A DNA stretch of 64,000 nucleotides from a virus (lineage: Duplodnaviria; Heunggongvirae; Uroviricota; Caudoviricetes), in IMG/VR virus record IMGVR_UViG_2639762884_000001. The stretch is one strand, 5' to 3'. This document shows, one piece after another, positions 29,830 through 46,111 of this stretch (the stretch's first letter is position 1; each line of letters opens with the position of its first letter). Both the position numbers and the translations under genes were made by a program. Below the pieces are notes generated by a model. That model had not been told where the DNA came from and ran no database searches. It saw nothing but the letters and a program-made list of their open reading frames with translations.

Positions 29830-31050
29830 TTAATTAAAACCGAATGAATTAAGTTCTGCTTTGAATTTATCGACCATTTTTTCAACTTCGTTTACAATTG
29901 CGTGAATCTCTTCGTCTTTTCTCGGATTAGAATTGAGGTCAAAATATGCCTTATATAAGGCATATTTTGACAAGCTTCCTTCAATATTTTCAGAGAAAAT
30001 ATTGGTACGACCATCAGTTAATAAGATATCAGCAGATCGGGAATTTAAATTATATTTATAGTAAATCTTTATTAGTCTGCTTATCTCTTTTTCATTCTTG
30101 ATTACCCTCTGTCTTTTACCAGCAATATTAAGACTCCAGCCTACATAACTAGTCAGATCGGAATTAAACTTACACACTTCCGCATCAGCTTTTTCCATAT
30201 TTAGATTAATATTATTTCTCATGTGTAGCGGTAATTCGTTGAATTTTTGCTGTAAATGCTGTTTGCAGGGATTGTTGTAAGACCACAGAATTGCGAACGT
30301 AGCTCTTTGCATCCGGGTATTCAGATCGATGTTAAAGTTCTCACGATCACGAATCATTTCATCTACATAAAACTCTACAGCTTTTCGGTATTCTTTGTTA
30401 AAGATCTCGGTAACATACATTTCTAAATAATGGACTTTCGAGATTGCCTCATCAAAAAAAAGCTCACTCTCAAAGAAGTTGTATTTATTTAAGAGATTAG
30501 AAAGTCTACTTAAGTCATAGGTTTTATTATTTTCAATATTAAGACCAAAAATGGCAATTAACAGACTTACTTTATGATTAATACTGCTACGTAATTGAGC
30601 TATATAAATTCTCTTTTCATCTTCTGCTGATGACAGTAGATAAAACTCTTTATCTAAATAATTTAAAATTAGAATTATGTGATTTACATATTTAATGTAA
30701 ATAGGTTGTTTTGTTACATAATAATAAATGCTTTTGATGGAATTAATGCTCAATTTCGTATTAAACTCTTTGTCATTCAACAAAGTGTTATTTACGTCCT
30801 CAAGTAATTTATCATGTTGCTCTAGTAATATTCCGTACCATTCTTTAAAAGAGGCTTTTTTCATTTCAAGAAGTGAATCTGCCGTTAATTGTGTTGCCTT
30901 CATTGCAGCTTTTGCACTATTTCTTGCCTCATAAGCAGCCCAAGCAGTAACAAAAGTAGCAAGTGAACCTATAGCCTCTTTGTATTCTTTAGCCACATCC
31001 CAAAAAATAATAGTTATTACACACAATATGAGAATTAATATTAAAGGCAT
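29830..31050 (-). CDS. AT-rich membrane-anchored protein of unknown function (candidate accessory/defence gene)
   Basis: 406 aa; N-terminal TM helix PLILILILCVITIIFW then a helical N/K/Y/I-rich soluble domain; markedly lower GC than flanking DNA; opposite strand. Confidence 0.5.
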   Translation of the reverse strand: MPLILILILCVITIIFWDVAKEYKEAIGSLATFVTAWAAYEARNSAKAAMKATQLTADSLLEMKKASFKEWYGILLEQHDKLLEDVNNTLLNDKEFNTKLSINSIKSIYYYVTKQPIYIKYVNHIILILNYLDKEFYLLSSAEDEKRIYIAQLRSSINHKVSLLIAIFGLNIENNKTYDLSRLSNLLNKYNFFESELFFDEAISKVHYLEMYVTEIFNKEYRKAVEFYVDEMIRDRENFNIDLNTRMQRATFAILWSYNNPCKQHLQQKFNELPLHMRNNINLNMEKADAEVCKFNSDLTSYVGWSLNIAGKRQRVIKNEKEISRLIKIYYKYNLNSRSADILLTDGRTNIFSENIEGSLSKYALYKAYFDLNSNPRKDEEIHAIVNEVEKMVDKFKAELNSFGFN

Positions 31051-31256
31051 GTTATCTATATCGTTAGTTAATTTTGAACATAAATGATACTTAGTCCACC
31101 GCTAAATTTCATCAAATTTGATAATTTTCTTGACGATCATGTCTCAAAATTATTTATACTTGGCATATTTGAGATATATAATAATAGGTAATAACACACC
31201 TATCACATTTAAGCATCAACAAGATAAATTACGGACCCAGACCAGAAAGGAAACTA

Positions 31257-31505
31257 ATGAGAAATATACTTATCTACGGACGAGATAACTGCTCATACTG
31301 CAAACGTGCGGTCGAGCTGGCGAAGAAACTAAAGGGACATGGCTACGGTGATTATGAGTACATCGACATCACCACTGCCGGTATCGATAAGGAAAAACTT
31401 AGCGAAATTGTTGGTAAACCGGTAGAGACTATCCCCCAGGTGCTGATCGATGGCCAGCCGATTGGCGGATACACAGAACTGGCTGCATACGTCAGCACCC
31501 TCTGA
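31257..31505 (+). CDS. Glutaredoxin-like protein (NrdC/NrdH-type)
   Basis: 82 aa with CSYC redox motif near the N-terminus (YGRDNCSYCKRA) and glutaredoxin-like C-terminus (PQVLIDGQPIGGY). Confidence 0.7.
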   Translation: MRNILIYGRDNCSYCKRAVELAKKLKGHGYGDYEYIDITTAGIDKEKLSEIVGKPVETIPQVLIDGQPIGGYTELAAYVSTL

Positions 31506-31509
31506 TTTT

Positions 31510-31533
31510 AACGGCTCACAGGAGCCGTTTTTT
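31510..31533 (+). terminator. Rho-independent terminator
   Basis: acggctc-acag-gagccgt hairpin followed by TTTTTT. Confidence 0.6.
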
Positions 31534-31585
31534 ATTCCCACCAAACTCACACCTGTTTCCATTAAAATTCAAAAAACAACGCCTG

Positions 31586-31618
31586 AATGATTCCATACCT
31601 ACTATGTATGGAATCATT
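31586..31618. promoter_or_regulatory. Perfect 12-bp inverted repeat upstream of the recombinase gene (candidate operator/recombinase site)
   Basis: aatgattccata-N9-tatggaatcatt. Confidence 0.4.
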
Positions 31619-31716
31619 GCTGAAAATGAGTTACTTTTACTCTTGATCCTATAAGAATCTATGCCTAATATACTGTTTACTTATACAGTGCATCGGCGTA
31701 ACTCGGTGATTGTCAT

Positions 31717-32820
31717 ATGAAAAATAGCTTTGACAGAGCACGCGCTGCGGAGAACACCTCAAAAGAGGCGATAGAGTATCTCGAAAGAGCATCTCAAATG
31801 CAGGCCGTTATGATCTCCCAGGTCAGCAATGACATGAGATTCTCGGACGCATTCATGTTATTCACTCGCTTATCTCTGCTGATAACCAGACGTCGGCCAG
31901 AGATCGCTGTTCATTGTATTTTGATACATGTTTTGCCGCACATTGCCGATGTAAAAGTAAGTGACATTAATAGGTTCATGGTGAACCAACTGGTCAACCC
32001 ACTAATACTGGATGGCAAAATTGTTATGGGCCGCCGCGTTTTCTCTCTGATGAAGCAGTTCCTTAGCTGGTGCGCCTTCCAGGGGATGATAGACGTGTCA
32101 CCGTTAAACGATATGTCACTTAACAAAGTTGCCGGTGGCGCAAAGCCCACACCTCGCGAGCGGAAGCTGACCGACGCAGAGGTATGGGTGTTCTGGAATA
32201 TATGGGACTACTTCAATGTGTGTGCTGGTACAAAATGGGCGGCCAGGCTGTGTCTTGTATCAGCAAGACGACCTGACGAAGTACTGCGGGCTAAAAAAAG
32301 TGAGTTCAATCTTAAGCGTGGGGTTTGGAATCAAGGCAAGAGGAACAAATCTGCCCGTGAGCATTCTCTGCCTTTAAGCTCATTAATGCGCACTTGTATT
32401 GAAGAGTTGTTCGAATATGGTAAAGACAGCCAGTGGCTCGTGCCTTCGAATAAAAAAATCGGGAAAGACCTTCCTATGTCTAAAGTGGCAATAGCCCAGG
32501 CATTACGTCGTATTCTGGAACGACCAGAACTGATGGAGCTTGAGCCATTTACACCCCGAGATTTGCGCCGTACTGCGCGTAGTTACTTCCCAGCATTAGG
32601 CATAAGCCAGGAGGTATCACGTAAAATCATGAACCACAGTCTTGAGGGGATAGATCGGGTCTACGACCGGCACGATTATATGGACGAGATGCGAGACGCC
32701 TTAGAAAGTTTCTCGACGTACATCGCATCAATCGTAGAGCAACCGGATTTAGACGAAATTGACCACAAATTTAAGGGAGATCGTCTATCAACAGAGCTTA
32801 TTCGTGTAAATTTTTCATAG
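31717..32820 (+). CDS. Tyrosine recombinase (phage integrase family)
   Basis: C-terminal catalytic region: LVSARRPDEV (Arg box), PRDLRRT, NHSLEGIDRVYDRHDY with terminal Tyr; 367 aa. Confidence 0.65.
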   Translation: MKNSFDRARAAENTSKEAIEYLERASQMQAVMISQVSNDMRFSDAFMLFTRLSLLITRRRPEIAVHCILIHVLPHIADVKVSDINRFMVNQLVNPLILDGKIVMGRRVFSLMKQFLSWCAFQGMIDVSPLNDMSLNKVAGGAKPTPRERKLTDAEVWVFWNIWDYFNVCAGTKWAARLCLVSARRPDEVLRAKKSEFNLKRGVWNQGKRNKSAREHSLPLSSLMRTCIEELFEYGKDSQWLVPSNKKIGKDLPMSKVAIAQALRRILERPELMELEPFTPRDLRRTARSYFPALGISQEVSRKIMNHSLEGIDRVYDRHDYMDEMRDALESFSTYIASIVEQPDLDEIDHKFKGDRLSTELIRVNFS

Positions 32821-33763: not shown

Positions 33764-35872
33764 ATGTCTAAAAAACGTTCCATCAAAGAGGTTCAGGACT
33801 TCCGTGACAGTGTAAAACGAGTAGTCGCTCTCCTTTCAGGTAAAAACATCCCTGTTGCAGAACGAGGGGACGACGCTTATGTACGCTATAACGATGATGG
33901 AGAGCCAATTCTCGTAAACATCCCATCAATCCCGGATAACGCAACACCGGCATTGATGAATGCTGTGCGCGGATTTCTCGATCATGAGGTTGCTCACATT
34001 TTGTTTACCGATATTCGTGTGTCCAACAAAATGAGAGAAAAAGGACGCGTTCCTTCCTGGTCGCTATGGAATGCCTTAGAAGACGTGTTCATCGAGCGAA
34101 AAATGGGTCAGGTCTTTAACGGAACAAGACGTAATCTGATGGCAACTCAGCGCCTTATAATCGAAAAAGTCTTTAAACCAAAGGCTTCAGAGGCTATTGC
34201 TTATTGTGGCAAAGATCAGCGCGCGCTTTTTCTAAACTTCTTTCTCTGTCCGGTTGTAAGAGCCTGGGATGGCCAAGCACCGTTCGTAGATTTCATGGAT
34301 GAATATTGGCCTGTCATTGAGAAACCAATTTCATTATTAAAAGAACATGGTATCGATGTGGCCGTGCGTAACATGTCTTGCACCGAGGATTGTGTAAAGG
34401 TGGCTGCGACCATAGCTAAGATCCTCAAAGACACTGAAAGTGAAAGCAAAGGTAAGGAGTCAGCTCCGGGAAAAACTTCCGATCCTTCAGACGCTGACCA
34501 GACGGATGCCTCTGGAGAAAACAATGAAGACAACGAAGATCATGAGACACCCTCAGCGTTAGATAATCACAAATCTATCAAATCAGAATCACACAGTAAG
34601 CACAAACATGATAATAACGACAGTGATGATTCAGATAATTCTGAATCATCAGAAACAATATTCGATGATACAGAAAATGATAAAGAGGTATCAGATTCTG
34701 ATGCTTCTGATAACGCGGTGTCAGAATCATTTACCGCTGACCACGAAAAAAGAAAAACGACAGAAGACGGCTCTTCAGATATTCCAACTCCGTCAAAAAT
34801 GAGTCTGGAAGAGGCTTTAGAGGAGCTGGATAGCATAGAAGATGAAGTCGGAGGCATGACAGAAGATGCTCTATCCGAAACGATTAAAAGCGAGTTAACA
34901 GAAAGCTCGAAAAGCGAATACAGGCCATACAATCGCTCATACGACTTCATCGGCTCGATTGATCAGGCAGAAGCCCATATCAAACGGCTTATTAAAACAT
35001 TCTCCGATATTGATTTAGGAGGATATCCAATCAGCCGCTATCGCATCGTTCCTGAAGGCAACCAGCTCTTCGACAAATATATTGAAAAGCATCTTTCGTC
35101 AGGTGTTTCGTCGACGCTGGCAAAAGACCTGGAGCGAGCAATAGCAAGCAGAAACAGAGTTCAGTTTATACCGGGCCAGCGTCGGGGGCGCATTCATGGT
35201 TCTAGTATCTACAGATTAGCAATGAATGATGATCGCGTGTTTCGTAAAAAAGAAGAATCTAAAGCCGTTAACGCCTGTGTTCAACAAGTGATTGATTTAT
35301 CAGGTTCAATGAGTGGTATAACGATACAATTGGCTCTTGCAAGTGCATATACCATCGCCGATGCCCTTGATCGAATAAATGTTCCCAACATTATCACCGG
35401 CTTCACTACATTTGGTAGTCATATGGCGGCAGGAGAACTTAAGGCTGTCAAGTATGAGTTCTCTCGCTTTGAATCTTTAATGCTACCTATCATCAAAAAT
35501 TGGAATGAAAAGGTAAATTCTCGCGAAGTTCGCTCACGTATGGGGTGCGTAGGCTACACATTCCCACTTCTTAATAACGTGGATGGTGAAAGCATAGCCA
35601 GCCTTGCATCGTTATTTTCCGGTCGCATGGAGGACAGGAAGATCATGCTTGTTCTGAGTGATGGCGCGCCGTGGGCTGTTGGGAGAGGTTTTGACGCTCA
35701 TTTGCGTTCGGTTGCGAAGCAAATTGAAACGCAGACTGACATTGATTTGATGGCAATTGGCATCATGACTGACGCACCGGAGAGATTTTACTCAAATCAT
35801 GCCCTGGTAACGAGCGTTGATAGTCTTGGTTCATCTGTAGTTACTGAACTATCTCGTATCATTTTAAAGTGA
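33764..35872 (+). CDS. von Willebrand factor A (VWA) domain protein, CobT-like
   Basis: MIDAS motif VIDLSGSMSG in the C-terminal half; long acidic Asp/Ser/Glu-rich low-complexity linker (about aa 240-350); paired with a CobS-like AAA+ gene. Confidence 0.6.
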   Translation: MSKKRSIKEVQDFRDSVKRVVALLSGKNIPVAERGDDAYVRYNDDGEPILVNIPSIPDNATPALMNAVRGFLDHEVAHILFTDIRVSNKMREKGRVPSWSLWNALEDVFIERKMGQVFNGTRRNLMATQRLIIEKVFKPKASEAIAYCGKDQRALFLNFFLCPVVRAWDGQAPFVDFMDEYWPVIEKPISLLKEHGIDVAVRNMSCTEDCVKVAATIAKILKDTESESKGKESAPGKTSDPSDADQTDASGENNEDNEDHETPSALDNHKSIKSESHSKHKHDNNDSDDSDNSESSETIFDDTENDKEVSDSDASDNAVSESFTADHEKRKTTEDGSSDIPTPSKMSLEEALEELDSIEDEVGGMTEDALSETIKSELTESSKSEYRPYNRSYDFIGSIDQAEAHIKRLIKTFSDIDLGGYPISRYRIVPEGNQLFDKYIEKHLSSGVSSTLAKDLERAIASRNRVQFIPGQRRGRIHGSSIYRLAMNDDRVFRKKEESKAVNACVQQVIDLSGSMSGITIQLALASAYTIADALDRINVPNIITGFTTFGSHMAAGELKAVKYEFSRFESLMLPIIKNWNEKVNSREVRSRMGCVGYTFPLLNNVDGESIASLASLFSGRMEDRKIMLVLSDGAPWAVGRGFDAHLRSVAKQIETQTDIDLMAIGIMTDAPERFYSNHALVTSVDSLGSSVVTELSRIILK

Positions 35873-35967
35873 ACAAAACAGCCTTAACGATAAGTAACCA
35901 CTTACGATAGATAATGATATATTTATATAAGAAGTTGAACGCTCATTAGAAAACAAAGGAAAAACGC

Positions 35968-37203
35968 ATGACTACTACTGCACTGCAAAATGAAAAAAAT
36001 CCTTCTGATTACCTTGTTTGCAAGTGGTGCGGAAAATCATTTCACTATTTTAAGTCCCATGTAGCCAATGGTAATTGCGAGGGCATTCCTGAGTCAGTAA
36101 AAGATGCCGATCCTGACACCGTACTGAAAATGTACACAACACAGTTTCCAGATGAGCCAACGCTATCGAAAAAGGCACTTGATGCAATTCAAGCTAAACG
36201 TGCCGAGCAAAAAAGCGAAATGGCCAAATCATCTGGCGTGACCAGTAGCCCAGGCTACACAGGCACAGTTGAGTACAAGACAGATCTGGTCGCAGCTCAC
36301 GAACTGCTAAATGTAACGGTGAAAGAACTCGGAACAAAACGTGGGACGCCGCTCATGGTTAGCGTCAACGTCAATACGCCGTTTCCAGAGTTCGTTCCAG
36401 AAGTGAAGAAGGGATACGTATATGGCGACTTCGAACTGATCAAAGACATTTTCATGATGCTTGAACTTGGCATACCTGGCTATTTGTGGGGTCATGCAGG
36501 AACAGGCAAATCTTCATTGCCTACACAACTATGTGCTTTGCTCAATCGTCCGTTAATCCGTGCCCAACATACAGCATCAATGGAAGAGGCTCATGTTACG
36601 GGACAAATTCTGGCGCGTGATGGCTCTACGTATTTCGAGCCTGGCTTGCTTGCGCTCGCAATGAAGCATGGCTGGGTTTACCTCGCGGATGAATACGACT
36701 TTGCGTTTCCACAGATTCTTGGCGTGTATCAGCCAGTGCTGGAAGGTGAAGCGTTGGTCATCAAAGAGGCGACTCCAGAATGGCGTCGCATTACTCCGCA
36801 TGAACGGTTTGCTTTCATTGGCACTGGCAACACGAACGGATCTGGTGATGAAACCGGCTTGTACCAGGGTACAAACATCCAGAACGCCGCGAACTTTTCG
36901 CGTTTTGGCATCGTTTCGAATGTGAAATACATGAGCAAAGAGGCAGAGATCAACATGTTGATAAATGCCGGTATCGTGGATGAATACGCAGAAAAGATGG
37001 TTAAGTTTGCCGGTATCGTTCGCGATGGATACGAAGAACACCTTATCAGTCAGCCAATTGGCCCTCGTGAACTTTTGTTGTCGGCCAAGATTGGAATGAT
37101 GCGAGGCGACTTTGTGACAGGTATTGAGCGTTCTTTCATTAACAAACTCCCTTCAGCTTCTGCACAAGCGGCTCGTGAAGTTGTTCAAAAAATATTTGGT
37201 TGA
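35968..37203 (+). CDS. AAA+ ATPase, CobS/MoxR-like
   Basis: Walker A GHAGTGKSS, Walker B VYLADEYDF; N-terminal Cys/His cluster CKWCGKSFHYFKSH...C. Confidence 0.6.
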   Translation: MTTTALQNEKNPSDYLVCKWCGKSFHYFKSHVANGNCEGIPESVKDADPDTVLKMYTTQFPDEPTLSKKALDAIQAKRAEQKSEMAKSSGVTSSPGYTGTVEYKTDLVAAHELLNVTVKELGTKRGTPLMVSVNVNTPFPEFVPEVKKGYVYGDFELIKDIFMMLELGIPGYLWGHAGTGKSSLPTQLCALLNRPLIRAQHTASMEEAHVTGQILARDGSTYFEPGLLALAMKHGWVYLADEYDFAFPQILGVYQPVLEGEALVIKEATPEWRRITPHERFAFIGTGNTNGSGDETGLYQGTNIQNAANFSRFGIVSNVKYMSKEAEINMLINAGIVDEYAEKMVKFAGIVRDGYEEHLISQPIGPRELLLSAKIGMMRGDFVTGIERSFINKLPSASAQAAREVVQKIFG

Positions 37204-37409
37204 TCGTGCGTAAAGGATGTTTCGGCTCTCTTATCGCTGCTTCTGAAACTGGTAAGGCTTGTCTGGTGTGTCCAGACAAGCCCGATTGTCACCAGTCAGC
37301 AAAAGAAGTTGCGATTTCGATGCATGGGAAGTTCGTAGGCTTCCCCAATGACAAAATCAAAAAAACCAGAAAGGTAAAAACACATGAAGGCACTGATGGT
37401 TCGAACTGA
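37200..37409 (+). CDS. Small cysteine-rich (zinc-ribbon-like) protein
   Basis: 69 aa with CLVCPDKPDC. Confidence 0.3.
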   Translation: MIVRKGCFGSLIAASETGKACLVCPDKPDCHQSAKEVAISMHGKFVGFPNDKIKKTRKVKTHEGTDGSN

Positions 37410-40400
37410 CTTCTCACTTGGGGAGTCGGCTCTAAAAGCAGAAAACGCGGTGAAGATTGCCAGAGAAGCTGGCTACACCGCTGTAATTTCAGCAGATAGC
37501 ATGAATATTGCGAGCGTTATTCCACTACAACGTGCCGCTGGTGACGACATGGCGGTTATTTGTGGTGTGAAACTAAACATTGTTGATGATCCCACATACG
37601 AGCACCGGGCTAAACTTGCTAAAGAATCTATGAGATGTATGGAATCATTAGAGCGGGGACGTAACTACTCGTTTACCGCTCTAATTAAAAATGAGCAAGG
37701 ATATCGCGACATCTGCGAACTAATGACGGTGGCCAACACACGAGAACAGTTCTACTTTGTACCGCGTCTCTCGCTCGAACAGTTGGTTTCTACATATGCC
37801 AAAGGCAACATCATCCTGCTCACTTCCGACATCGGTAGCGTGTTCCAACGCAACGATTTTGCAAAAATCATAAGCTCACTGATTACAGCGGGCGGGAAAG
37901 ACAACTTCTATAGCGTGGTTTATCCGCACCCTACCCCATTCTACGACCAGATTAACGTCCGAGCGATGAAAGTAGCCAGCGCACTGAAAATAGAGCCAGT
38001 AGCGTTCTATCCCGCTTATTACGAATCGATCGACGATGCAGACATTAAAGACATTGCGCACATGGTTACGAACAACATAAAAATCGACCAGCCGCATCGT
38101 CTGCGTATCCCCCACCAGCGAGATAACGCCGTCAATGGTCGCCGCCATCTCCTTGAGGCGCTTAAAGCCTTCTCCGTTCGCATGGATGTGCCGGTAACAG
38201 CTGCAATGGCCTCAACAACGCAGGACTCCATTATCGAAGCCTGTACATGGCGCTGGCATGAATTGCCACCAGCACTGCCCAAGATGGCAGACGACGAGCC
38301 TGCAACGCTGATGAAACTGGCTGTTGCAGGGCTGCGCAAACGTCTTACCACAAAAGAGTTTGGCTACACACCACCGGCTTCTGAGAACAGGGTTTATGTT
38401 GAGCGACTTAAGTACGAAATGGACACGCTTACTCGCCTGGGATTTTGTGGTTACTTCCTGATGGTACGCGATCTGATGAATCACAGCCGTGAAACTGGCA
38501 TTCCTGTCGGGCCTGGTCGTGGTTCCTCCGCTGGCTCTTTGGTGGCATGGTGCATAGGCATAACCAACGTCGACCCTATCCGTCACGGTCTTCTGTTTGA
38601 ACGTTTCATCAACCCTGAGCGTCTCGACTTGCCAGATGCGGATTTGGACTTCAGCCAGGCACGTCGCCATGAGGTGATCGAGTATCTGAATGAACGATAC
38701 GGCGAAGATTACGTTGCGGGTATTCCGAACTTCACATATCTGGGCGCAGCCTCTGCACTACGTGACACCGCTCGTATTTATGGTGTGGAGTCCGCAGATA
38801 TGGCGGTATCAAAAGAACTGAAGAACGTCGAGGATGATAGCCTTCCATTGGAAGAGCTGCGCGAACAACTGGCAAGTCTCGACAAATACGCGACAAAATA
38901 TCCTGATGCATTCAATGCAGCCTGCAAGTTACAAAGCCTTATGCGTGGCTTTGGTAGACATGCGGCAGGGATGATCGTAGCAGGTGTTCCTCTGACAGAA
39001 CGTACACCGGTTGAGCGCCGTGGTGACGCGCGTTGTATCGCATTTGACAAGCGTTACTGCGAGGCTATGGGCCTAATTAAGCTGGACGTACTTGGCCTAG
39101 CAACTCTCGATTTGCTTGATAGTGCAAAACGCTACATTAAAGAGAACACAGGTGAAGATATCAATCTTGATGCCATTTCTCTTGAAGATCGCAAGGTGCT
39201 GGATGGTTTTGCTGCTGGGTACACTCAAGGTGTTTTCCAGCTTGAATCAGGCCCAATGCGCAAGCTGCTTAAAGATTTAGGTGGTGGAATTGAGCCAATG
39301 AGCTTTAAAACGGTCGTCGCTACGACTGCGCTCTTCCGGCCGGGGCCAATTCAGTCAGGCATGTTGGATGACTATGTTTCTGTCGCCAAAGGCTTTATGA
39401 CGCCGGAATCATTACACCCCGTTCTTGATGAACTTACCGCGGAAACAAATGGCGTGATTCTCTATCAGGAACAGACGATGAACGCGACTCGATTGCTTGC
39501 CGGCTTCACAATGGCTGAAGCTGACGCTGTGCGTTCCGCAATCGGTAAGAAGAACATGGAAAAAATGAAGAGCATGGGCGAGAAGTTCATCGTTCAGGCT
39601 CAAGCTGGCTGGATAGACGTTGAGCTGGAAGATGGCACTACACAGCGCATTCACCGTGCGGAACATTTTAAATGCGAAGACGGAACTCTGAAAACTGTCG
39701 AAGAGGCACTTGAGCACGGCGCAAAACTACCTATAAACGCAGTACGCGTTACAGCGTCACATCCAGGGCTATCAGAGATGAAAGCGAAGGAGATCTGGAC
39801 CGCATTCGAAAAAAATGGTGCCTACCAGTTCAACAAATCACACTCTGTTGCTTACTCCTTGATCAGTTATCAATCTATGTGGTTGAAAACTCATTATCCC
39901 GCAGAGTTTTTCGCTGCTGCTCTCACTATTCTTGGCGAAGATAAACACCAGGGGCTGGTTAAAGATGCGCTGACCTATGGTATTCGCGTATTGCCACCAG
40001 ACGTTAACGTGTCATCCAACCGAATCGAGATCCGCACGCTTGAAGATGGCAGCCAGGTGCTGTATGCGCCCTTCTCTGCTGTGAAGGGGTGTTCTGAGAA
40101 TGGCTGCCAAGCCATCATGAGAGCGCGAGAAAAAGTTGGCGGCAAATTCGAGTCACTGGCGCAATTCGAAGAAGCTGTCGAGAAACGTGCCTGTAATAGT
40201 CGAGTGCGCGAATCGCTGCAAAAAGTAGGGGCGTTTGCATCCATCGAGCCAGGTAGTCTGCCAGCAACTGATCCAGAGCGCCTACGCGACCAGGCTGAAT
40301 TGATGGGAAACCTTGTCATAGACGCAGTTAAAGCCTCACGTCCGTTTGAGATGAACCCCAAACGTTCGGCTGAGATTAACGTGCTCATGACACGGATGGC

Positions 40401-40902
40401 GGCTGAAATGGGCTTAGGTGATGAACTAATCCGCCCCAGCATTGGTATTAAGCCGAAAATCATGATCATTCTGGACAATGCGAACGGCAATGATGCTCGA
40501 ACCGGTTACTTTATGGAGAACGGATACGACGATTTTAAGGCCAAGCTATTGACGGCTGGAGATTTACGCATGGGCGATCTGTATGTCACAGGCGTTTGCA
40601 AAAAGGTGAAAGACAAAGAAAAGGACTACACCAAAGACGAGATCGGCCAGTTCACCGACTTTATGCGTGAAGAGATCAATCTGGTACGTCCGACCTATGT
40701 GCTGACGTGTGGCAGCCGGGCGACGTCGCTCTTCAACAACAAGATCAAACCATCCGACCTGGTTGGACGCAAAGAGTATCTGCCGGAGCTGGATGTGACT
40801 GTTTTCTACGGATTTAACCCGAATATTTTGTACTTTCGCCCAGAGGAAGGCGAAAAGCTGGAAGCAATTCTTGCAGAGGTAGCGGAGACTATTAGCAAAT
40901 GA
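37384..40902 (+). CDS. DNA polymerase III alpha-type (DnaE-like) replicative polymerase with C-terminal UDG-like domain
   Basis: DnaE palm signature GFCGYFLMVRDLMNHSRETGIPVGPGRGSSAGSLVAWCIGITNVDPIRHGLLFERFINPERLDLPDADLDF; N-terminal PHP-like region; C-terminal ~200 aa with UDG-superfamily-like pattern. Confidence 0.8.
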   Translation: MKALMVRTDFSLGESALKAENAVKIAREAGYTAVISADSMNIASVIPLQRAAGDDMAVICGVKLNIVDDPTYEHRAKLAKESMRCMESLERGRNYSFTALIKNEQGYRDICELMTVANTREQFYFVPRLSLEQLVSTYAKGNIILLTSDIGSVFQRNDFAKIISSLITAGGKDNFYSVVYPHPTPFYDQINVRAMKVASALKIEPVAFYPAYYESIDDADIKDIAHMVTNNIKIDQPHRLRIPHQRDNAVNGRRHLLEALKAFSVRMDVPVTAAMASTTQDSIIEACTWRWHELPPALPKMADDEPATLMKLAVAGLRKRLTTKEFGYTPPASENRVYVERLKYEMDTLTRLGFCGYFLMVRDLMNHSRETGIPVGPGRGSSAGSLVAWCIGITNVDPIRHGLLFERFINPERLDLPDADLDFSQARRHEVIEYLNERYGEDYVAGIPNFTYLGAASALRDTARIYGVESADMAVSKELKNVEDDSLPLEELREQLASLDKYATKYPDAFNAACKLQSLMRGFGRHAAGMIVAGVPLTERTPVERRGDARCIAFDKRYCEAMGLIKLDVLGLATLDLLDSAKRYIKENTGEDINLDAISLEDRKVLDGFAAGYTQGVFQLESGPMRKLLKDLGGGIEPMSFKTVVATTALFRPGPIQSGMLDDYVSVAKGFMTPESLHPVLDELTAETNGVILYQEQTMNATRLLAGFTMAEADAVRSAIGKKNMEKMKSMGEKFIVQAQAGWIDVELEDGTTQRIHRAEHFKCEDGTLKTVEEALEHGAKLPINAVRVTASHPGLSEMKAKEIWTAFEKNGAYQFNKSHSVAYSLISYQSMWLKTHYPAEFFAAALTILGEDKHQGLVKDALTYGIRVLPPDVNVSSNRIEIRTLEDGSQVLYAPFSAVKGCSENGCQAIMRAREKVGGKFESLAQFEEAVEKRACNSRVRESLQKVGAFASIEPGSLPATDPERLRDQAELMGNLVIDAVKASRPFEMNPKRSAEINVLMTRMAAEMGLGDELIRPSIGIKPKIMIILDNANGNDARTGYFMENGYDDFKAKLLTAGDLRMGDLYVTGVCKKVKDKEKDYTKDEIGQFTDFMREEINLVRPTYVLTCGSRATSLFNNKIKPSDLVGRKEYLPELDVTVFYGFNPNILYFRPEEGEKLEAILAEVAETISK

Positions 40903-41050
40903 ACAAAGAGAACACCATGAAGGTGGCCAGAGAGAAAAGAGTTTATGGAAGTAAACAAGATTGGCGATGTAAGACAGTACAGGCTGAAGTGCCAAACCAG
41001 AGTCTCGCTATCCAACATTCTTGGTAAGAAGGTCGCTTAATATAATAAAC

Positions 41051-41077
41051 AGGCCCGTTATATAACGGGCCTTTTAG
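41051..41077. terminator. Bidirectional rho-independent terminator
   Basis: aggcccgtta-tata-acgggcct followed by TTTT; between the polymerase operon and the convergent minus-strand gene. Confidence 0.55.
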
Positions 41078-42058
41078 TTAACAAATTCTATTATTAACTA
41101 GTATAGTATGGAGTTTATTATTTATAGGGGAATACGGATCGAAATCACTCATCATGACACTATTTGATTCGCACGCCTGTTCAAAGGCATACATAATTAT
41201 AGGCATATAGCGCTCATGACATTTTTTAAGTGATTTAACTTCCTCTGATAGATACTCTAGTCGATTGTTACCTCTAATAGCCAATTCCACCTCATCATAT
41301 GAGTACAACAAATCGTTTAAATCACAGAAAAAATTAAAATTTGGTAGTCCATGTTTTAAATCCCCGTCCACAATTGTTTCTTCAAAGAATTCCCCTAATG
41401 CAGTAATGTTTCTCTCAATACCTTCGCATCGTTCAATGATCTTCAGATCTTCACTAGATAGCCATAATCTAAGCCATTTCTCTCTATCCCTTGGAGATTT
41501 CAGATATTGGTCTTCGTTAAATGTTACTGATGTACTTCCTGAGTTATTGTAATCCGCTGTACTTGATAACGATGCGATGGTTTGTTTGTCTAAATGCCGC
41601 CAGTAAATATCTGGCTCTTCATGCTTATTATCTTCGTTTAGACAAATTAAAACGATCACTATAGGGAAATCGCATTCCCCCCAATACTTTAAATTTTTAT
41701 AGGGGATCTGTACTCCTAGACTACTACTCATTGTGCGTGAGGTGGTTTTTACCTGAACGCCAATAAACATACCGGTAGAAAGTTCATTTTCATAGATTTC
41801 AACCTGTGCATCCAACCCCATATCAATATCCAGCAGTCGACAAGGCCATTTGAAATAACGGGAAATCCAATAAGCAAATAAGTACTCACCAGCGTGTCCT
41901 TCTGCACTGGTCTTCGGATATGTCATGCCTTCAGTTTTATTTTTTTCTGCTGCTGACCTCGCAGACTTAACTTTTGGGGGTGGGGACAGTTCTTTAGTCG
42001 GCACAGGCTTTTCTGCTTTTGCTTGATTGTTAGCTTTATTCATTGATTTTATTCTCAC
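41078..42058 (-). CDS. AT-rich PD-(D/E)xK nuclease-like protein (DUF4365-like) of unknown function (candidate defence gene)
   Basis: 326 aa; after a Lys/Pro-rich N-terminus: AEGHAGEYLFAYWI ... LLDIDMGLDAQVEIY ... FIGVQVKTT, a D...E...(Q)VK arrangement of restriction-endonuclease-like folds; low GC; opposite strand. Confidence 0.5.
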   Translation of the reverse strand: MRIKSMNKANNQAKAEKPVPTKELSPPPKVKSARSAAEKNKTEGMTYPKTSAEGHAGEYLFAYWISRYFKWPCRLLDIDMGLDAQVEIYENELSTGMFIGVQVKTTSRTMSSSLGVQIPYKNLKYWGECDFPIVIVLICLNEDNKHEEPDIYWRHLDKQTIASLSSTADYNNSGSTSVTFNEDQYLKSPRDREKWLRLWLSSEDLKIIERCEGIERNITALGEFFEETIVDGDLKHGLPNFNFFCDLNDLLYSYDEVELAIRGNNRLEYLSEEVKSLKKCHERYMPIIMYAFEQACESNSVMMSDFDPYSPINNKLHTILVNNRIC

Positions 42059-42186
42059 TTTGTTCTGTTCGCTTTATGCCCTGATTCTGCCCTTTAGCTC
42101 CCATACTGTCTACCGCTAATCATAGCAGTAAAGCTCTTTTTATTTGATATAATCAAATACACAAAATTAAGTTGGAACCTATCAAA

Positions 42187-42735: not shown

Positions 42736-43764
42736 ATGTCTAAGACATTACTTGATTTGCTTAACAAAACTCGTGAAGACATTGCCGCCAAACGTGGTAA
42801 CAACGTTGATCTGACTCGCTTAAAAGACGGCGTTAACTATATCCGCATCTTCCCGAATAAAGACGACCCAAACGGTAAGTTCTTCCAGACTTTCGGTATG
42901 CACTACGTTAAGTATCAGAACGAGGAAGGTAAAGAAGCAACCAACGCTTATATTTGTGAGCAACATACTCACGGTCGCGCTTGTCAGCTATGCGAAATGG
43001 TGATGGAAGGTCGCGCTCGTCACAAGGGTAACAAAGCAATGGAAGAACGCATCGGTCAAATGCGTGCCACTCCTCGCTACCTGGTCAACGGCATTCTTTC
43101 TGCTCGTGAGGATTTCGCAGATGCTGAGAAATGCCAGTTAATCGAGCTGCCGTCTACTGTATTCGATGATATCTGCAAAGCAATCACCGAAGACATCGCT
43201 GATGATATCGGCAATCCACTGAGCAAAGAGGAAGGCTACGCATTCCTGATTAAACGTACTGGCTCTGGTCGCGATACCAAATATGACGTCTCGCCTAAGC
43301 GTAAAGTCTACAAAGGCGATATCGAAGATAAATTCTGGAACACCCAGCATGATCTGATCGCATACGCAAATCAGGCTGATGAAACTCGTCTTCTGTCGAC
43401 AGTTCGCACTATGGGTCGTCTGATTGGCATCGCTGCACCAACTGCCGCAGCATCTGCACCAGCAATTTCCTCAACCGCGAAAACATCGGCTGCGGCACTA
43501 CCTGGATTTGGCTCTGTCACTGGTCATACAGAAGGAGCGACGGCTGTAGCAACCGCGCACACACCGGCTTCTGAACCAACCAGTCTGGTTGATGAAGAAA
43601 TCCTCCGTGCCGTTGAAACTGAATTTAAACCAGAGGCAAGTTCCGCTGCCGTTGCCGTATCAGTCAAAGAGTCTGAAGCAGTCGCAGCGACATCTGTAGC
43701 AACCGCATCTGCGACGGAAGATGAAGGTCTGGATGACCTACTGAGAGAGCTGGACTCTCTGTAA
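42736..43764 (+). CDS. Single-stranded DNA-binding protein, T4 gp32-like
   Basis: Zinc-binding pattern C-x2-H-x5-C-x2-C (CEQHTHGRACQLC) in an OB-fold-sized N-terminal domain; acidic C-terminal tail (EDEGLDDLLRELDSL). Confidence 0.6.
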   Translation: MSKTLLDLLNKTREDIAAKRGNNVDLTRLKDGVNYIRIFPNKDDPNGKFFQTFGMHYVKYQNEEGKEATNAYICEQHTHGRACQLCEMVMEGRARHKGNKAMEERIGQMRATPRYLVNGILSAREDFADAEKCQLIELPSTVFDDICKAITEDIADDIGNPLSKEEGYAFLIKRTGSGRDTKYDVSPKRKVYKGDIEDKFWNTQHDLIAYANQADETRLLSTVRTMGRLIGIAAPTAAASAPAISSTAKTSAAALPGFGSVTGHTEGATAVATAHTPASEPTSLVDEEILRAVETEFKPEASSAAVAVSVKESEAVAATSVATASATEDEGLDDLLRELDSL

Positions 43765-43780
43765 TCCCATTACGTGACCA

Positions 43781-43809
43781 GTAAGGCGTCTACGGACGCC
43801 TTACTTTTT
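43781..43809 (+). terminator. Rho-independent terminator
   Basis: gtaaggcgtc-tacg-gacgccttac followed by TTTTT; overlaps the annotated 5' end of the next track ORF. Confidence 0.55.
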
Positions 43810-43827
43810 GGAAGGAATGTACCGGTG

Positions 43828-44769
43828 AATTATCTCTTCGTAGATGGCAATAGCCTGGGTTATTACCACCAACAATCTGACAAATTGCACAACGGCGAAA
43901 TGGAAGTACAGGCTGCTTTCGGCTTTGTTAAGAACGTCCGTCGTTATGCCTCCATCCTCCATGCCCGACCTATGATTCTTTGGGATGGATTTAGTGACAA
44001 GCGTCGCGACTTTTACCCGGACTACAAAGCAAATCGCGACGACGATCCTGATATGAAAAAGATGAAGGAAGGCTTTGCTATCCAGAAGCCATACATCCTC
44101 AAAATGATGACCGCGCTTGGAGTTACCCAACTCATTGCAAAAGATGCAGAAGCGGATGATCTGGCCGGGCTGCTGGTATCCCGCATGGCACCGCAGCCAA
44201 CCGTTGAACACATCTATCTGTTAACAGGCGATAGCGACTGGCTTCAGTTAGTTCGTGAAAACGTAAGCTGGGTAAGCCTGCGTGAAGACGCCAAAAACAA
44301 GCAGGTTAATTTTGAGCAATTTGCGGAGCTGACAGGATTCGCCACGCCTCGCGCATTTTTGGAAGCAAAAGCATTACAAGGCGATAACTCGGACAACATT
44401 AGCGGTGTTGGTGGCATTGGTGCTGGCGGTGCGAAAGAGCTGCTGCATGAATGGGGAAGTGTCGCAACGATGGTACGCGGCATCAACGACGGCTCAATCG
44501 TGGTTAATAAAGGGCGTCATAAGACCGCCTTCAACAAACTAGCGAAGAATGCCTTCAACGAGAAAACAGGCTGTCGAATGCTCGAAGCGTTCAAGAGAAA
44601 CATCACGCTAATGAACCTGATTGAGACGAAGTTTCCGCCTACCGAAATCGAAACAATCAAAGGCAATCGTGACGTGAAAGCATTCGAGCAACTGTGCTAC
44701 GAGCTGAATTTCCGTTCGTTCCTTGAAGACCTTGAAGTGTTTGTTCTTCCATTCGAAAGGTATTGCTAA
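43828..44769 (+). CDS. 5'-3' exonuclease / flap endonuclease (Pol I N-terminal-domain family)
   Basis: LFVDGNSLGYY ... ILWDG ... DYKANRD ... KDAEADDL motifs; start moved to GTG at 43828 (RBS ggaagga) because the track ATG at 43774 lies inside the upstream terminator; start uncertain. Confidence 0.7.
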   Translation, partial: NYLFVDGNSLGYYHQQSDKLHNGEMEVQAAFGFVKNVRRYASILHARPMILWDGFSDKRRDFYPDYKANRDDDPDMKKMKEGFAIQKPYILKMMTALGVTQLIAKDAEADDLAGLLVSRMAPQPTVEHIYLLTGDSDWLQLVRENVSWVSLREDAKNKQVNFEQFAELTGFATPRAFLEAKALQGDNSDNISGVGGIGAGGAKELLHEWGSVATMVRGINDGSIVVNKGRHKTAFNKLAKNAFNEKTGCRMLEAFKRNITLMNLIETKFPPTEIETIKGNRDVKAFEQLCYELNFRSFLEDLEVFVLPFERYC

Positions 44770-45037: not shown

Positions 45038-46111
45038 ATGGCAAAAGGAAAATCCGCACTGGCACTTGCTCTGAAAAAGAAAATCGGTAGCAACGACGAA
45101 ATTCAGAAAGTAACTCATTGGATTGATACAGGCTTTCCACCGTTAAACAAAGCTATTTCTGGTCGTTACGATGGCGGCTTCCCATGTGGTCGTATCGTCG
45201 AAGTATTCGGTCCTCCAAGTGCAGGGAAAACGTTCCTTGCAACAGCAGCGATGATCTCCGCTCAAAAACAAGATGGTCTGGCGGTATTCCTCGATCATGA
45301 AAACAGTTTTGACGTTGGCCTGGCTGTAGCCAATGGCCTGAACGCAGATGAGGATGACGGTCAGTGGGTATACAAGCAGCCAGATACCTTCGAAGACTCT
45401 GTAGAGTTGATCGGCACAATACTTAAATTGGTTCGTGATGAAGAGCTTATCCCCGAATCAGCACCTATCTGTATCGTGGCTGACTCTCTTGCGTCTATGG
45501 TTCCGAACTCCAAAGCTGAGAAGTTCGAAAAGATGGCTGAAGGCACTGCCAAAGACAAAGATCAGCTAAACATGAACGACAATACGGCACTGGCTCGTGC
45601 GACGAGTGCGAACTTCCCTACTCTGGCTTTGTGGGCACGCAAATACAACGCCTGCATCATCTTCTTGAATCAGGTTCGCACAAAAATCGGTGTAATGTTT
45701 GGCGACCCTACTACGTCGCCAGGTGGAGATTCACCGAAGTTCTACGCTTCTGTACGTATCCGTCTTGGTGCATCGGTGATGAAGGATGGTAAAGAGAAGA
45801 TCGGCCAGGACGTAGGCGCAGAATGCATCAAAAACAAAGTTGCACCACCGTATGGCAAATGCACCTGGAAATTCTACTTCGATCCTACTCGTGGCCTCGA
45901 CGTTATCGAATCGCTCGTCGAGTACATGCTGGAAGAAGGATACCTGCCAAAGAACGCCAGCGGGCGAGTTGAAATTGGTGACAAGAAATACACCAAATCG
46001 CAGATCGTCGAGATGTATCGGGAGAAGCCACTGGCTGAAATCATTGCGGCTTTGCAGGCAATCGACGACCGAAGAGCAAAAGACAACCCCACCGAGTCAG
46101 TAGAAGAGTAA
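45038..46111 (+). CDS. recA: RecA-like recombinase
   Basis: Walker A GPPSAGKT; IIFLNQVRTKIGVMFGDPTTSPGGDSPKFYASVRIRLG closely resembles the RecA core. Confidence 0.8.
   Translation: MAKGKSALALALKKKIGSNDEIQKVTHWIDTGFPPLNKAISGRYDGGFPCGRIVEVFGPPSAGKTFLATAAMISAQKQDGLAVFLDHENSFDVGLAVANGLNADEDDGQWVYKQPDTFEDSVELIGTILKLVRDEELIPESAPICIVADSLASMVPNSKAEKFEKMAEGTAKDKDQLNMNDNTALARATSANFPTLALWARKYNACIIFLNQVRTKIGVMFGDPTTSPGGDSPKFYASVRIRLGASVMKDGKEKIGQDVGAECIKNKVAPPYGKCTWKFYFDPTRGLDVIESLVEYMLEEGYLPKNASGRVEIGDKKYTKSQIVEMYREKPLAEIIAALQAIDDRRAKDNPTESVEE

What the first reader, a model, noticed from the sequence alone, without database searches (positions are those of the whole stretch)
37384..40902. DnaE-type polymerase carrying a C-terminal uracil-DNA-glycosylase-like domain
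Residues about 1-960 match Pol III alpha (PHP domain and the strongly conserved palm signature). The last ~200 residues (from about IMIILDNANGNDARTGYF to VFYGFNPNILYF) follow the pattern of UDG-superfamily folds, suggesting a fused uracil-sensing or repair module.
Basis: inference. Interest (0 to 1): 0.5.

Follow-up and report, generated by a model that had tools for sequence, protein, structure and literature searches.

The report
Phage-plasmid DnaE with degenerate UDG-fold tail
The replicative DNA polymerase of this E. coli phage-plasmid does end in a domain with the uracil-DNA-glycosylase fold, but this fusion was described years ago and the domain has lost the residues that normal enzymes of this family use to recognise and cut out uracil.

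Summary
ORF 37384-40902 (+) encodes an 1172-aa DnaE-type polymerase with PHP, palm, fingers and (HhH)2 domains up to residue 955. [quoted passage not shown] Support: hhalign 99.7%, E 3e-25; AlphaFold pLDDT 87.8; Foldseek E about 1e-10 and TM 0.64-0.78 to 1L9G, 4ZBX and 1UI0.

The fusion is already known. Timinskas et al. 2014 describe this DnaE variant from Yersinia and Salmonella plasmids, with the OB and C-terminal domains replaced by an archaeal-type UDG. Public records carry the label too. The window is an SSU5-like phage-plasmid, 100% identical over the stretch compared (40243-42100) to 108-kb E. coli plasmids. The same fusion occurs in Pseudomonas and Rhizobium phages and in about 150 metagenomic clusters.

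The "uracil repair" reading is weak:
- Motif A GE[AG]PG reads LDNAN.
- The catalytic His of motif B is Asn.
- The uracil-binding Asn is Gly.
- All four Fe-S cysteines are gone.
- These losses hold across the whole clade.

The domain is nevertheless under purifying selection as strong as the palm (dN/dS 0.01-0.03). Most likely it is a non-catalytic DNA-binding or processivity module placed after a probable clamp-binding motif, as proposed for the inactive UDG domain of N4-like PolA. A divergent glycosylase activity is not excluded. Interest is low.

The parts
37384..40902 (+). dnaE-type C-family DNA polymerase gene, 1172 aa including the C-terminal UDG-like domain
   Evidence: ORF list. TIGR00594 630.7 bits, above its cut-off of 434. 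PHROG 405 'DNA polymerase' matches full length 4-1171. 96% nt identity to Escherichia phage PhiR41_1 and 85.5% to Salmonella phage SSU5 'DNA polymerase III alpha subunit'.
37399..37908 (+). PHP domain (residues 6-175)
   Evidence: Pfam PF02811, E 6.5e-13. The N-terminus reads LMVRTDFS where metal-binding PHP domains have an H-x-H motif (sequence; the comparison is from my own knowledge).
38308..39603 (+). Polymerase core: palm/NTPase (309-571) and fingers (574-740)
   Evidence: Pfam PF07733, E 1.3e-73, and PF17657, E 7.8e-44.
39613..39786 (+). Variable insert in the fingers (about residues 744-801), at the position where many relatives are split into two genes
   Evidence: It is not covered by any Pfam model. 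It has the lowest conservation in the gene, 37% aa identity to phage Cyrano against 92-100% elsewhere. About 35 homologue clusters of 372-422 aa begin at the equivalent of residues about 793-800.
39979..40248 (+). (HhH)2 / clamp-binding domain (residues 866-955)
   Evidence: Pfam PF14579 HHH_6, E 1.7e-16.
40291..40305 (+). Probable beta-clamp-binding motif Q970-A-E-L-M974
   Evidence: It is conserved as DQxEL[LM]PGL in 89 relatives, directly after the HhH domain. Position and pattern fit the QL[S/D]LF consensus, in which positions 1, 4 and 5 matter most (PMC3919608). Binding itself is inferred.
40357..40899 (+). Diverged family-4 UDG-fold domain (residues about 992-1172), replacing the OB fold and tau-binding C-terminal domain of ordinary DnaE
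   Evidence: AF2 pLDDT is above 90 over most of 992-1172. Foldseek to 1L9G, 1VK2, 4ZBX and 1UI0 gives E 5e-11 to 3e-10. hhalign gives 99.7%. TIGR00758 E 1.1e-8. dN/dS is 0.009-0.032.
40471..40488 (+). Motif A equivalent: L1030-D-N-A-N-G1035 in place of G-E-[A/G]-P-G
   Evidence: Alignments with classical family-4 UDGs. Across relatives the second position is Asp in 103 of 119.
40591..40593 (+). G1070, at the position of the uracil-binding Asn (N80 of Tth UDGa)
   Evidence: Alignment VYITN vs LYVTG. Relatives have S, G, A or T here, and Asn in only 2 of 119. The role of N80 is from PMC5387724.
40813..40824 (+). Motif B equivalent: F-N1145-P-N in place of [TY]-H-P-[SA]
   Evidence: Alignments. 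Relatives have N 70, S 28, T 13, and His only in the 5 rows with Glu at the E41 position. H155S lowers k2 more than 1000-fold in Tth UDGa.

Best explanation
This is the replicative C-family (DnaE-type) polymerase of an SSU5-like phage-plasmid. The PHP, palm, fingers and (HhH)2 core is intact. [quoted passage not shown] That domain keeps the alpha/beta UDG fold but has lost the iron-sulfur cluster ligands, the catalytic histidine and the uracil-specific asparagine. I therefore infer that it no longer excises uracil in the canonical way. Instead it probably serves as a DNA-binding, processivity or scaffold module. It is tethered just after a probable beta-clamp-binding motif, roughly where the OB fold would hold single-stranded template. 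This would let the phage polymerase work without the host tau/clamp-loader contact. Shown here: the gene, the domain order, homology and fold, loss of signature residues across the clade, strong purifying selection, and the fusion (or a two-gene split that keeps the UDG-like domain on the C-terminal half) in all closer relatives. Inferred: the lack of glycosylase activity, DNA binding, clamp binding, and the position of the domain on the template.
For: Homology to family-4 UDG rests (hhalign 99.7%, E 3.3e-25). The fold rests, with phage UDGs and UDG-PolA fusions as the nearest viral structures. The pocket residues E41/G42/E47/F54/N80/H155 of Tth UDGa map to D/N/D/M/G/N here. The His position is N, S or T and the Asn position is S, G, A or T in the fused clade, so these positions are variable as well as changed. 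The Cys ligands are absent. dN/dS of the domain is 0.009-0.032, equal to the palm, so the domain is functional and not decaying. The motif Q-x-E-L-[LM] directly after HhH is conserved in 89 relatives. For precedent, N4-like PolA carries a family-4 UDG domain with unconserved catalytic residues, proposed to act as a processivity module (PMC10201439). Vaccinia UDG has a catalysis-independent role in the processivity factor (abstract of PMC1936997). Replacement of the OB and C-terminal domains in this DnaE variant is stated in PMC3919608.
Against: No activity was or could be measured. Some pocket-lining positions stay conserved: Asp at the E41 position in 87% of relatives, Glu/Asp at the E47 position in 94%, and Pro of motif B in 116 of 119. 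That is more than a pure scaffold would need. From my own knowledge, family-2 MUG/TDG enzymes work with Asn instead of His in motif B, so His loss alone does not prove inactivity. Other phage UDG-polymerase fusions (SPO1-like, SP15-like) are active and excise dU ahead of the fork (bioRxiv 10.1101/2025.03.26.645540). The AF2 alignment contained family-4 UDG sequences, so the model is not fully independent of them. I could not obtain coordinates, so pocket geometry and the placement of the domain on the polymerase are untested.
Confidence: 0.6

Rival explanations
1. The domain is an active DNA glycosylase with divergent motifs (D-x-P and [NST]-P). It would remove uracil or another aberrant or modified base from the template or nascent strand during replication, as in the SPO1-like and SP15-like UDG-PolA fusions. 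The phage's own 5'-3' exonuclease and ligase would complete repair.
For: The UDG fold is intact at high confidence. Purifying selection is strong. Asp is nearly invariant at the E41 position, Glu/Asp is conserved at the E47 position, and Pro of motif B is retained. Active UDG-PolA fusions read dU ahead of the fork. A 5'-3' exonuclease lies nearby at 43774-44769, and a DNA ligase is annotated in the syntenic part of SSU5.
Against: The catalytic His equivalent is Asn here and varies among N, S and T in relatives. The uracil-binding Asn equivalent is Gly and varies among S, G, A and T. In Tth UDGa, H155S lowers k2 more than 1000-fold and N80A lowers k2/Km about 40-fold, and even E41D is reported to reduce activity substantially. 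The domain fails the curated family thresholds. No AP endonuclease was noticed near the gene.
Confidence: 0.25
2. The domain is mainly a protein-protein interaction module. It would replace the tau-binding C-terminal domain and couple the polymerase to phage replisome partners (DnaB-like helicase, primase, gp32-like SSB) or to the host clamp, with no direct role on DNA.
For: It occupies the place of the tau-binding C-terminal domain. The phage-plasmid encodes its own helicase, primase, gp32-like SSB, 5'-3' exonuclease and RecA-like protein in the same region. Vaccinia UDG acts through binding A20. In split relatives the domain always stays with the HhH/clamp-binding half.
Against: No partner is identified. 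The conserved positions include Lys residues in the beta2 region (K71 and K74 of alignment A1) and former pocket residues, which points towards nucleic acid. This rival overlaps with the best explanation, since both are non-catalytic.
Confidence: 0.14
3. The UDG resemblance is a chance or compositional similarity, and the C-terminus has an unrelated fold.
For: A single-sequence Pfam hit of only E 0.0023-0.024, below the gathering score.
Against: hhalign gives 99.7%, E 3.3e-25. The profile search hits PF03167 proteins. All top PDB sequence and structure hits are family-4 UDG or UdgX.
Confidence: 0.01

Closest known systems
[quoted passage not shown] 2014, PMC3919608, citing Aravind and Koonin 2000). 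Phage examples are SSU5, PhiR41_1, Cyrano and Klebsiella phage pJN2-26.
   Same: It is the same protein family and the same architecture. Nucleotide identity to these phage-plasmids is 80-96%, and the C-terminal domain is 92-98% identical at the amino-acid level. This is what the window encodes.
   Different: Nothing essential differs. The window copy differs mainly in the variable insert at 744-801 and in the accessory gene downstream.
Family-4 uracil-DNA glycosylase (UDGa; T. thermophilus 1UI0, T. maritima 1L9G, S. tokodaii 4ZBX)
   Same: Same fold and clear common ancestry. Shared structural motifs include the KP-x-V-I-V-x-x-G strand and the Pro of motif B.
   Different: Differences: no [4Fe-4S] cysteines; GE[AG]PG reads LDNAN; N80 is Gly; H155 is Asn. 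It is fused to a polymerase instead of free-standing. It scores below the TIGR00758 and PF03167 cut-offs.
[quoted passage not shown] 2023, PMC10201439)
   Same: Both are phage replicative polymerases fused to a family-4-derived UDG fold whose catalytic residues are not conserved, with a proposed processivity role. Such PolA fusions are among the nearest viral structural matches.
   Different: The polymerase family differs (A versus C). The domain is N-terminal there and C-terminal here, and the fusion events are probably independent.
SPO1-like and SP15-like UDG-PolA (YerA41, phiLo; bioRxiv 10.1101/2025.03.26.645540)
   Same: A UDG domain built into a phage replicase. This gives a mechanistic model in which the domain reads the template ahead of the fork.
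   Different: Those domains keep motifs UDG-A and UDG-B and are demonstrably active. The phages have hypermodified thymidine. They are family-A polymerases.
Poxvirus D4 UDG as part of the polymerase processivity factor
   Same: A UDG fold used in replication independently of catalysis (abstract of PMC1936997).
   Different: It is a family-1-like UDG, a separate polypeptide bound through A20, and still catalytically active.

Membership tests
C-family DNA polymerase, DnaE type (Pol III alpha) | PHP domain, Pol3 core (palm, thumb, fingers) and tandem (HhH)2, in that order | tested here: met
   Pfam PF02811, PF07733, PF17657 and PF14579 are all above their gathering scores and in the canonical order. 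TIGR00594 scores 630.7 bits against a cut-off of 434.
C-family DNA polymerase, DnaE type (Pol III alpha) | Beta-clamp-binding motif (QL[S/D]LF-like) directly after (HhH)2 | tested here: inconclusive
   Q970-A-E-L-M974 is at the right place and is conserved as Q-x-E-L-[LM] in 89 relatives. It fits positions 1 and 4 and has a hydrophobic residue at position 5 (consensus). Binding was not tested.
Chromosomal replicative DnaE1 (E. coli-type Pol III alpha) | C-terminal OB fold and tau-binding C-terminal domain; score above the equivalog cut-off | tested here: not met
   NF004226 scores 678.6 bits against a cut-off of 1002 and matches only 4-743. Residues 992-1172 are a UDG fold instead. PMC3919608 states that the OB and C-terminal domains are replaced in this variant.
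UDG superfamily (PF03167 clan) | Alpha/beta UDG fold and detectable profile homology | tested here: met
   Foldseek E 5e-11, TM 0.69-0.78 to 1L9G. hhalign 99.7%. The profile search hits PF03167 proteins at E down to 1.8e-13.
Family-4 UDG (UDGa, TIGR00758) | Score above the curated family cut-off | tested here: not met
   TIGR00758 scores 34.9 bits against 125.3. PF03167 scores 18.5 bits against 24.3.
Family-4 UDG (UDGa, TIGR00758) | Motif A G-E-[A/G]-P-G | tested here: not met
   It reads L-D-N-A-N at 1030-1034. The clade consensus is D-x-P-[NTS].
Family-4 UDG (UDGa, TIGR00758) | Motif B H-P-[S/A] with the catalytic His (H155 of Tth UDGa) | tested here: not met
   N1145-P-N. Relatives have N, S or T.
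Family-4 UDG (UDGa, TIGR00758) | Uracil-specific Asn (N80 of Tth UDGa) | tested here: not met
   G1070. Relatives have S, G, A or T.
Family-4 UDG (UDGa, TIGR00758) | Four Cys ligands of the [4Fe-4S] cluster | tested here: not met
   The four Cys columns of the classical sequences (three at 90% or more in A3; consensus) align to non-Cys residues in the window protein. The third-Cys position is Cys in only 11 of 119 relatives.
Family-4 UDG (UDGa, TIGR00758) | Uracil excision activity on ssDNA and dsDNA | not testable with these tools
   This needs a glycosylase assay.
UdgX (covalent uracil-DNA binding protein) | Family model TIGR03914; R-loop KRRIH with the cross-linking His; GEQPG motif | tested here: not met
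   TIGR03914 gives E 0.15 and 11.6 bits against a cut-off of 189.95. No GEQPG motif is present. The motifs are described in the abstract of PMC10359453. UdgX structures match only at the fold level.

The most novel reading that the evidence does not exclude
The D-x-P / [NST]-P clade of UDG-fold domains fused to phage C-family polymerases might be a new functional family of the UDG superfamily. It could be a glycosylase with a new base specificity. It could also be a non-cleaving 'read-ahead' sensor that flips out and inspects template bases ahead of a bacterial-type replicase. That would be the C-family counterpart of the SP15-like UDG-PolA mechanism and of uracil read-ahead in archaeal family-B polymerases.
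Probability: 0.15. Interest if true: 0.6.

Novelty: already known. Interest (0 to 1): 0.2.

Why it matters
This polymerase replicates a widespread group of phage-plasmids. The same dnaE C-terminus was found on plasmids in 242 of 5426 complete E. coli genomes, and SSU5-like relatives occur in Salmonella and Klebsiella. The domain is strongly conserved but nobody appears to have tested what it does. Active UDG-PolA fusions have now been shown to repair dU ahead of the fork, so the C-family equivalent is a reasonable biochemical target. As a genome-scan finding, however, it restates a published and database-annotated architecture. The only addition here is the clade-wide loss of the family-4 catalytic and cofactor residues.

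Tried and rejected
- The single-sequence word-indexed search with the C-terminal 219 aa found only 6 close fragments. It was replaced by the exhaustive representative search and a profile search.
- Aravind and Koonin 2000 (PMC15025) is not held in the library, so its statements are cited only through Timinskas 2014.
- I did not run a full-length AlphaFold model, because the tools return no coordinates and domain placement could not have been read from it.
- I compared the small ORF upstream of dnaE (37200-37409) with the small ORF that overlaps the dnaE start in Rhizobium phage RHEph10. There was no similarity, so a conserved accessory subunit is not supported.
- I considered whether the split relatives are split-intein genes. 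This was rejected because the C-terminal halves start about 25-30 residues before the FNKSHS motif and show no intein-like C-terminal block (intein features are from my own knowledge).
- UdgX-like covalent capture was rejected.
- Chance similarity was rejected.
- A literature search for experimental work on the SSU5-type DnaE found nothing: none of the 12 listed papers (of 320 holding at least two of the three terms) contains the term 'SSU5'.
Full report
**1. The observation**

The window holds an uninterrupted ORF at 37384-40902 on the + strand, 1172 aa. Pfam finds four domains in canonical DnaE order:
- PHP, residues 6-175
- Pol III alpha palm/NTPase, 309-571, E 1.3e-73
- fingers, 574-740
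- HHH_6, 866-955

TIGR00594 passes its cut-off (630.7 vs 434). The equivalog model for chromosomal Pol III alpha does not (678.6 vs 1002), and it aligns only to residues 4-743.

**2. Is the C-terminus really UDG-like?**

With single-sequence models the signal is sub-threshold:
- PF03167: E 0.0023, 18.5 bits against 24.3.
- TIGR00758 (family 4): E 1.1e-8, 34.9 bits against 125.3.
- The four best PDB sequence hits are all family-4 UDGs, at E 0.02-0.18.

An exhaustive HMMER search of 1.84 billion cluster representatives found 149 related clusters. A profile built from 35 of these domains (A1) hits free-standing PF03167 proteins at E 1.8e-13 to 1e-4 in a database of 5.8 billion sequences. hhalign of that profile against 24 classical family-4 UDGs gives 99.7% probability, E 3.3e-25, over 170 columns.

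AlphaFold2 on residues 954-1172 with a 30-row alignment gives mean pLDDT 87.8 and pTM 0.80, with a confident alpha/beta domain from about residue 992. Foldseek against the PDB puts these first, at E 5e-11 to 3e-10 and TM 0.64-0.78:
- T. maritima UDG (1L9G, 1VK2)
- S. tokodaii family-4 UDG (4ZBX, 4ZBY)
- T. thermophilus UDG (1UI0)
- UdgX

Family 5 and TDG/MUG follow at E about 1e-5. Against viral models, the best matches are phage UDGs and UDG-PolA fusions, including the SP-15 DNA polymerase. One caveat applies. The AF2 alignment contained family-4 sequences, but the profile-level homology is independent of the model.

**3. What the element is**

The gene is 96% identical to Escherichia phage PhiR41_1, 85.5% to Salmonella phage SSU5 and about 80% to Klebsiella phage-plasmids. 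The 1858-bp stretch 40243-42100 is 100% identical to 108,475-bp plasmids of chicken E. coli. 242 of 5426 complete E. coli genomes carry the dnaE C-terminus, always on a plasmid. So the window is an SSU5-like phage-plasmid.

The gene sits in a replication module:
- DnaB-like helicase, 20354-21694
- primase, 21704-22957
- CobT-like VWA protein and AAA_5 ATPase, 33764-37203
- dnaE
- gp32-like SSB, 42736-43764
- 5'-3' exonuclease, 43774-44769
- RecA-like protein, 45038-46111

**4. Fused or separate in relatives?**

The same C-terminal domain, at 25-30% identity, is fused to DnaE in Pseudomonas phages (nickie, Nican01, hairong) and Rhizobium phages (RHEph10 and relatives).

In the metagenomic representatives, 45 clusters are about 1080-1750 aa. 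Of these, about 40 (1077-1172 aa) are full-length fusions of the window's size; five are longer, and one (P0112, 1743 aa) matches only in short repeated stretches. About 35 clusters are 372-422 aa. Most of these begin with Met at a shared position equivalent to window residues about 793-800, so they are the C-terminal half of a two-gene DnaE. In every case the UDG-like domain stays attached to the HhH/clamp-binding part. A few proteins of 146-200 aa that start with Met may be stand-alone copies or fragments. I could not check their contigs.

**5. Is it likely to excise uracil?**

For T. thermophilus UDGa the uracil pocket is formed by E41, G42, E47, F54, N80 and H155. H155S lowers k2 by more than three orders of magnitude. 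N80A lowers k2/Km about 40-fold. Even conservative E41 substitutions reduce activity substantially (PMC5387724).

In the alignments these positions map as follows in the window protein:

| Tth UDGa residue | Window residue |
|---|---|
| E41 | D1031 |
| G42 | N1032 |
| E47 | D1037 |
| F54 | M1044 (with F1043 adjacent) |
| N80 | G1070 |
| H155 | N1145 |

Motif A, GE[AG]PG, reads LDNAN. Motif B, HP[SA], reads NPN. The four cysteines of the Fe-S cluster align to non-Cys residues.

Across 119 homologues the pattern is:
- His position: N 70, S 28, T 13, and His in only 5 rows (the same number of rows have Glu at the E41 position).
- Asn80 position: S, G, A or T, with Asn in only 2.
- E41 position: Asp in 87%.
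- E47 position: Glu or Asp in 94%.
- Motif-B Pro: 116 of 119.

So the two residues that matter most for uracil chemistry and specificity are both changed and variable. A few pocket-lining positions remain conserved.

The domain is not decaying. Against SSU5, pJN2-26 and Cyrano, its dN/dS is 0.009-0.032, the same as the palm at 0.00-0.03.

**6. Mechanism**

Cellular DnaE has, after the (HhH)2 motif, a clamp-binding motif, an OB fold and a C-terminal domain (PMC3919608). Here the segment directly after HhH carries Q970-A-E-L-M974. It is conserved as DQxEL[LM]PGL in 89 relatives, which fits the QL[S/D]LF consensus at the positions reported to matter most.

Residues 977-984 are predicted with low confidence (pLDDT below 50) and probably form a flexible linker. 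The UDG fold follows.

My best reading, at about 0.6, is a non-catalytic module that binds DNA, or DNA plus partners, in place of the OB and C-terminal domains. Two precedents support this. N4-like PolA carries an inactive family-4 UDG domain that has been proposed to act as a processivity module. Vaccinia UDG has a catalysis-independent role in replication.

The main rival, at about 0.25, is a divergent but active glycosylase coupled to replication, as demonstrated for SP15-like UDG-PolA. It is kept alive by the conserved Asp and Glu/Asp positions. It is also helped by the fact, from my own knowledge, that MUG/TDG enzymes lack the motif-B His.

**7. Comparison with what is known, and novelty**

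The architecture is published. Timinskas et al. [quoted passage not shown]

Public records already carry the label:
- The RHEph10 polymerase note lists "uracil-DNA glycosylase-like".
- NCBI names a 374-aa C-terminal fragment "uracil-DNA glycosylase".
- PGAP names a broken copy "uracil-DNA glycosylase family protein".

The protein is a member of the DnaE family and of the UDG superfamily. It fails every sequence feature that defines a family-4 enzyme, so it should be called UDG-like, not a UDG. The verdict is already known and of low interest. The function of the domain is untested as far as I could find.

**8. Other things seen**

- **Variable insert.** Residues 744-801 form a variable insert at the site where relatives are split. 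Two NCBIfam half-length DnaE models (NF007079 and NF005616) also meet there.
- **PHP domain.** Its N-terminus lacks the H-x-H of metal-binding PHP domains.
- **Downstream hotspot.** The position downstream of dnaE holds variable accessory genes. Here it is a DUF4365 / Aga-REase-like gene on the minus strand, covered by only 10 of the 242 E. coli plasmid matches. Cyrano has HicAB there and pJN2-26 has a Csp gene.

Noticed in passing
window 39613-39786 (residues about 744-801 of the polymerase): A poorly conserved insert in the fingers (37% aa identity to phage Cyrano, against 92-100% for the rest of the protein). It lies where about 35 metagenomic relative clusters are split into two genes, with C-terminal halves of 372-422 aa starting 'MKVKS..DGMS..AE.LW..IE.FA.YSFNKSHS'. 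Two NCBIfam half-length DnaE models (NF007079 matching 86-774, NF005616 matching 815-956) also meet here. From memory, these are the split cyanobacterial DnaE models. No intein features were seen.
   Followed up: partly
window 41078-42058 (- strand): A 326-aa DUF4365 protein (Pfam E 2.3e-16; PADLOC Aga_REase-PNTD1-PNTD2 E 2.2e-10) sits directly downstream of dnaE. Only 10 of 242 E. coli plasmids with this dnaE match at least 80% of a query that spans it. The same slot holds HicAB in phage Cyrano, a Csp gene in pJN2-26 and an excisionase-like regulator in SSU5. It looks like an accessory or defence-gene hotspot.
   Followed up: partly
window 37384-37500 (polymerase residues 1-40): The PHP domain starts 'MKALMVRTDFSLGES', where metal-binding PHP domains have H-x-H (E. 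coli DnaE 'HLRVHSDYS', from memory). An intrinsic PHP exonuclease is therefore unlikely. I saw no epsilon-like proofreader in the replication module, so the source of proofreading is open.
   Followed up: no
window 37200-37409 (+): A 69-aa ORF (TTG start) with a Cys-rich stretch 'CLVCPDKPDCH' overlaps the dnaE start by 26 nt. SSU5 annotates an equivalent small gene (SSU5_051). It has no Pfam hit and no similarity to the small ORF that overlaps the dnaE start in Rhizobium phage RHEph10.
   Followed up: partly
window 33764-37203 (+): A CobT-like VWA protein (702 aa) and an AAA_5/CobS-like ATPase (411 aa) lie immediately upstream of dnaE. A cobS-like gene also lies two genes upstream of dnaE (one hypothetical gene between) in the distant Pseudomonas phage nickie. 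This conserved synteny suggests a link to replication and not to cobalamin synthesis.
   Followed up: no
whole window; L004 (PhiR41_1): The stretch 40243-42100 is 100% identical to 108,475-bp plasmids from chicken E. coli (for example NZ_OZ392465.1). 242 of 5426 complete E. coli genomes carry the dnaE C-terminus, always on plasmids, so this is an SSU5-like phage-plasmid.
   Followed up: yes
window 30001-32000; ORF 29830-31050 (-): GC content dips to 0.356 (window average about 0.46) around a 406-aa minus-strand ORF with no PADLOC hit. It lies upstream of the integrase-like gene at 31717-32820 and may be recently acquired cargo.
   Followed up: no
window 22949-24139 (-): A 396-aa minus-strand ORF after the primase gene has a weak PADLOC hit to the PtuA AAA ATPase (E 1.5e-5, short stretch only). 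PhiR41_1 has no counterpart at that position.
   Followed up: no
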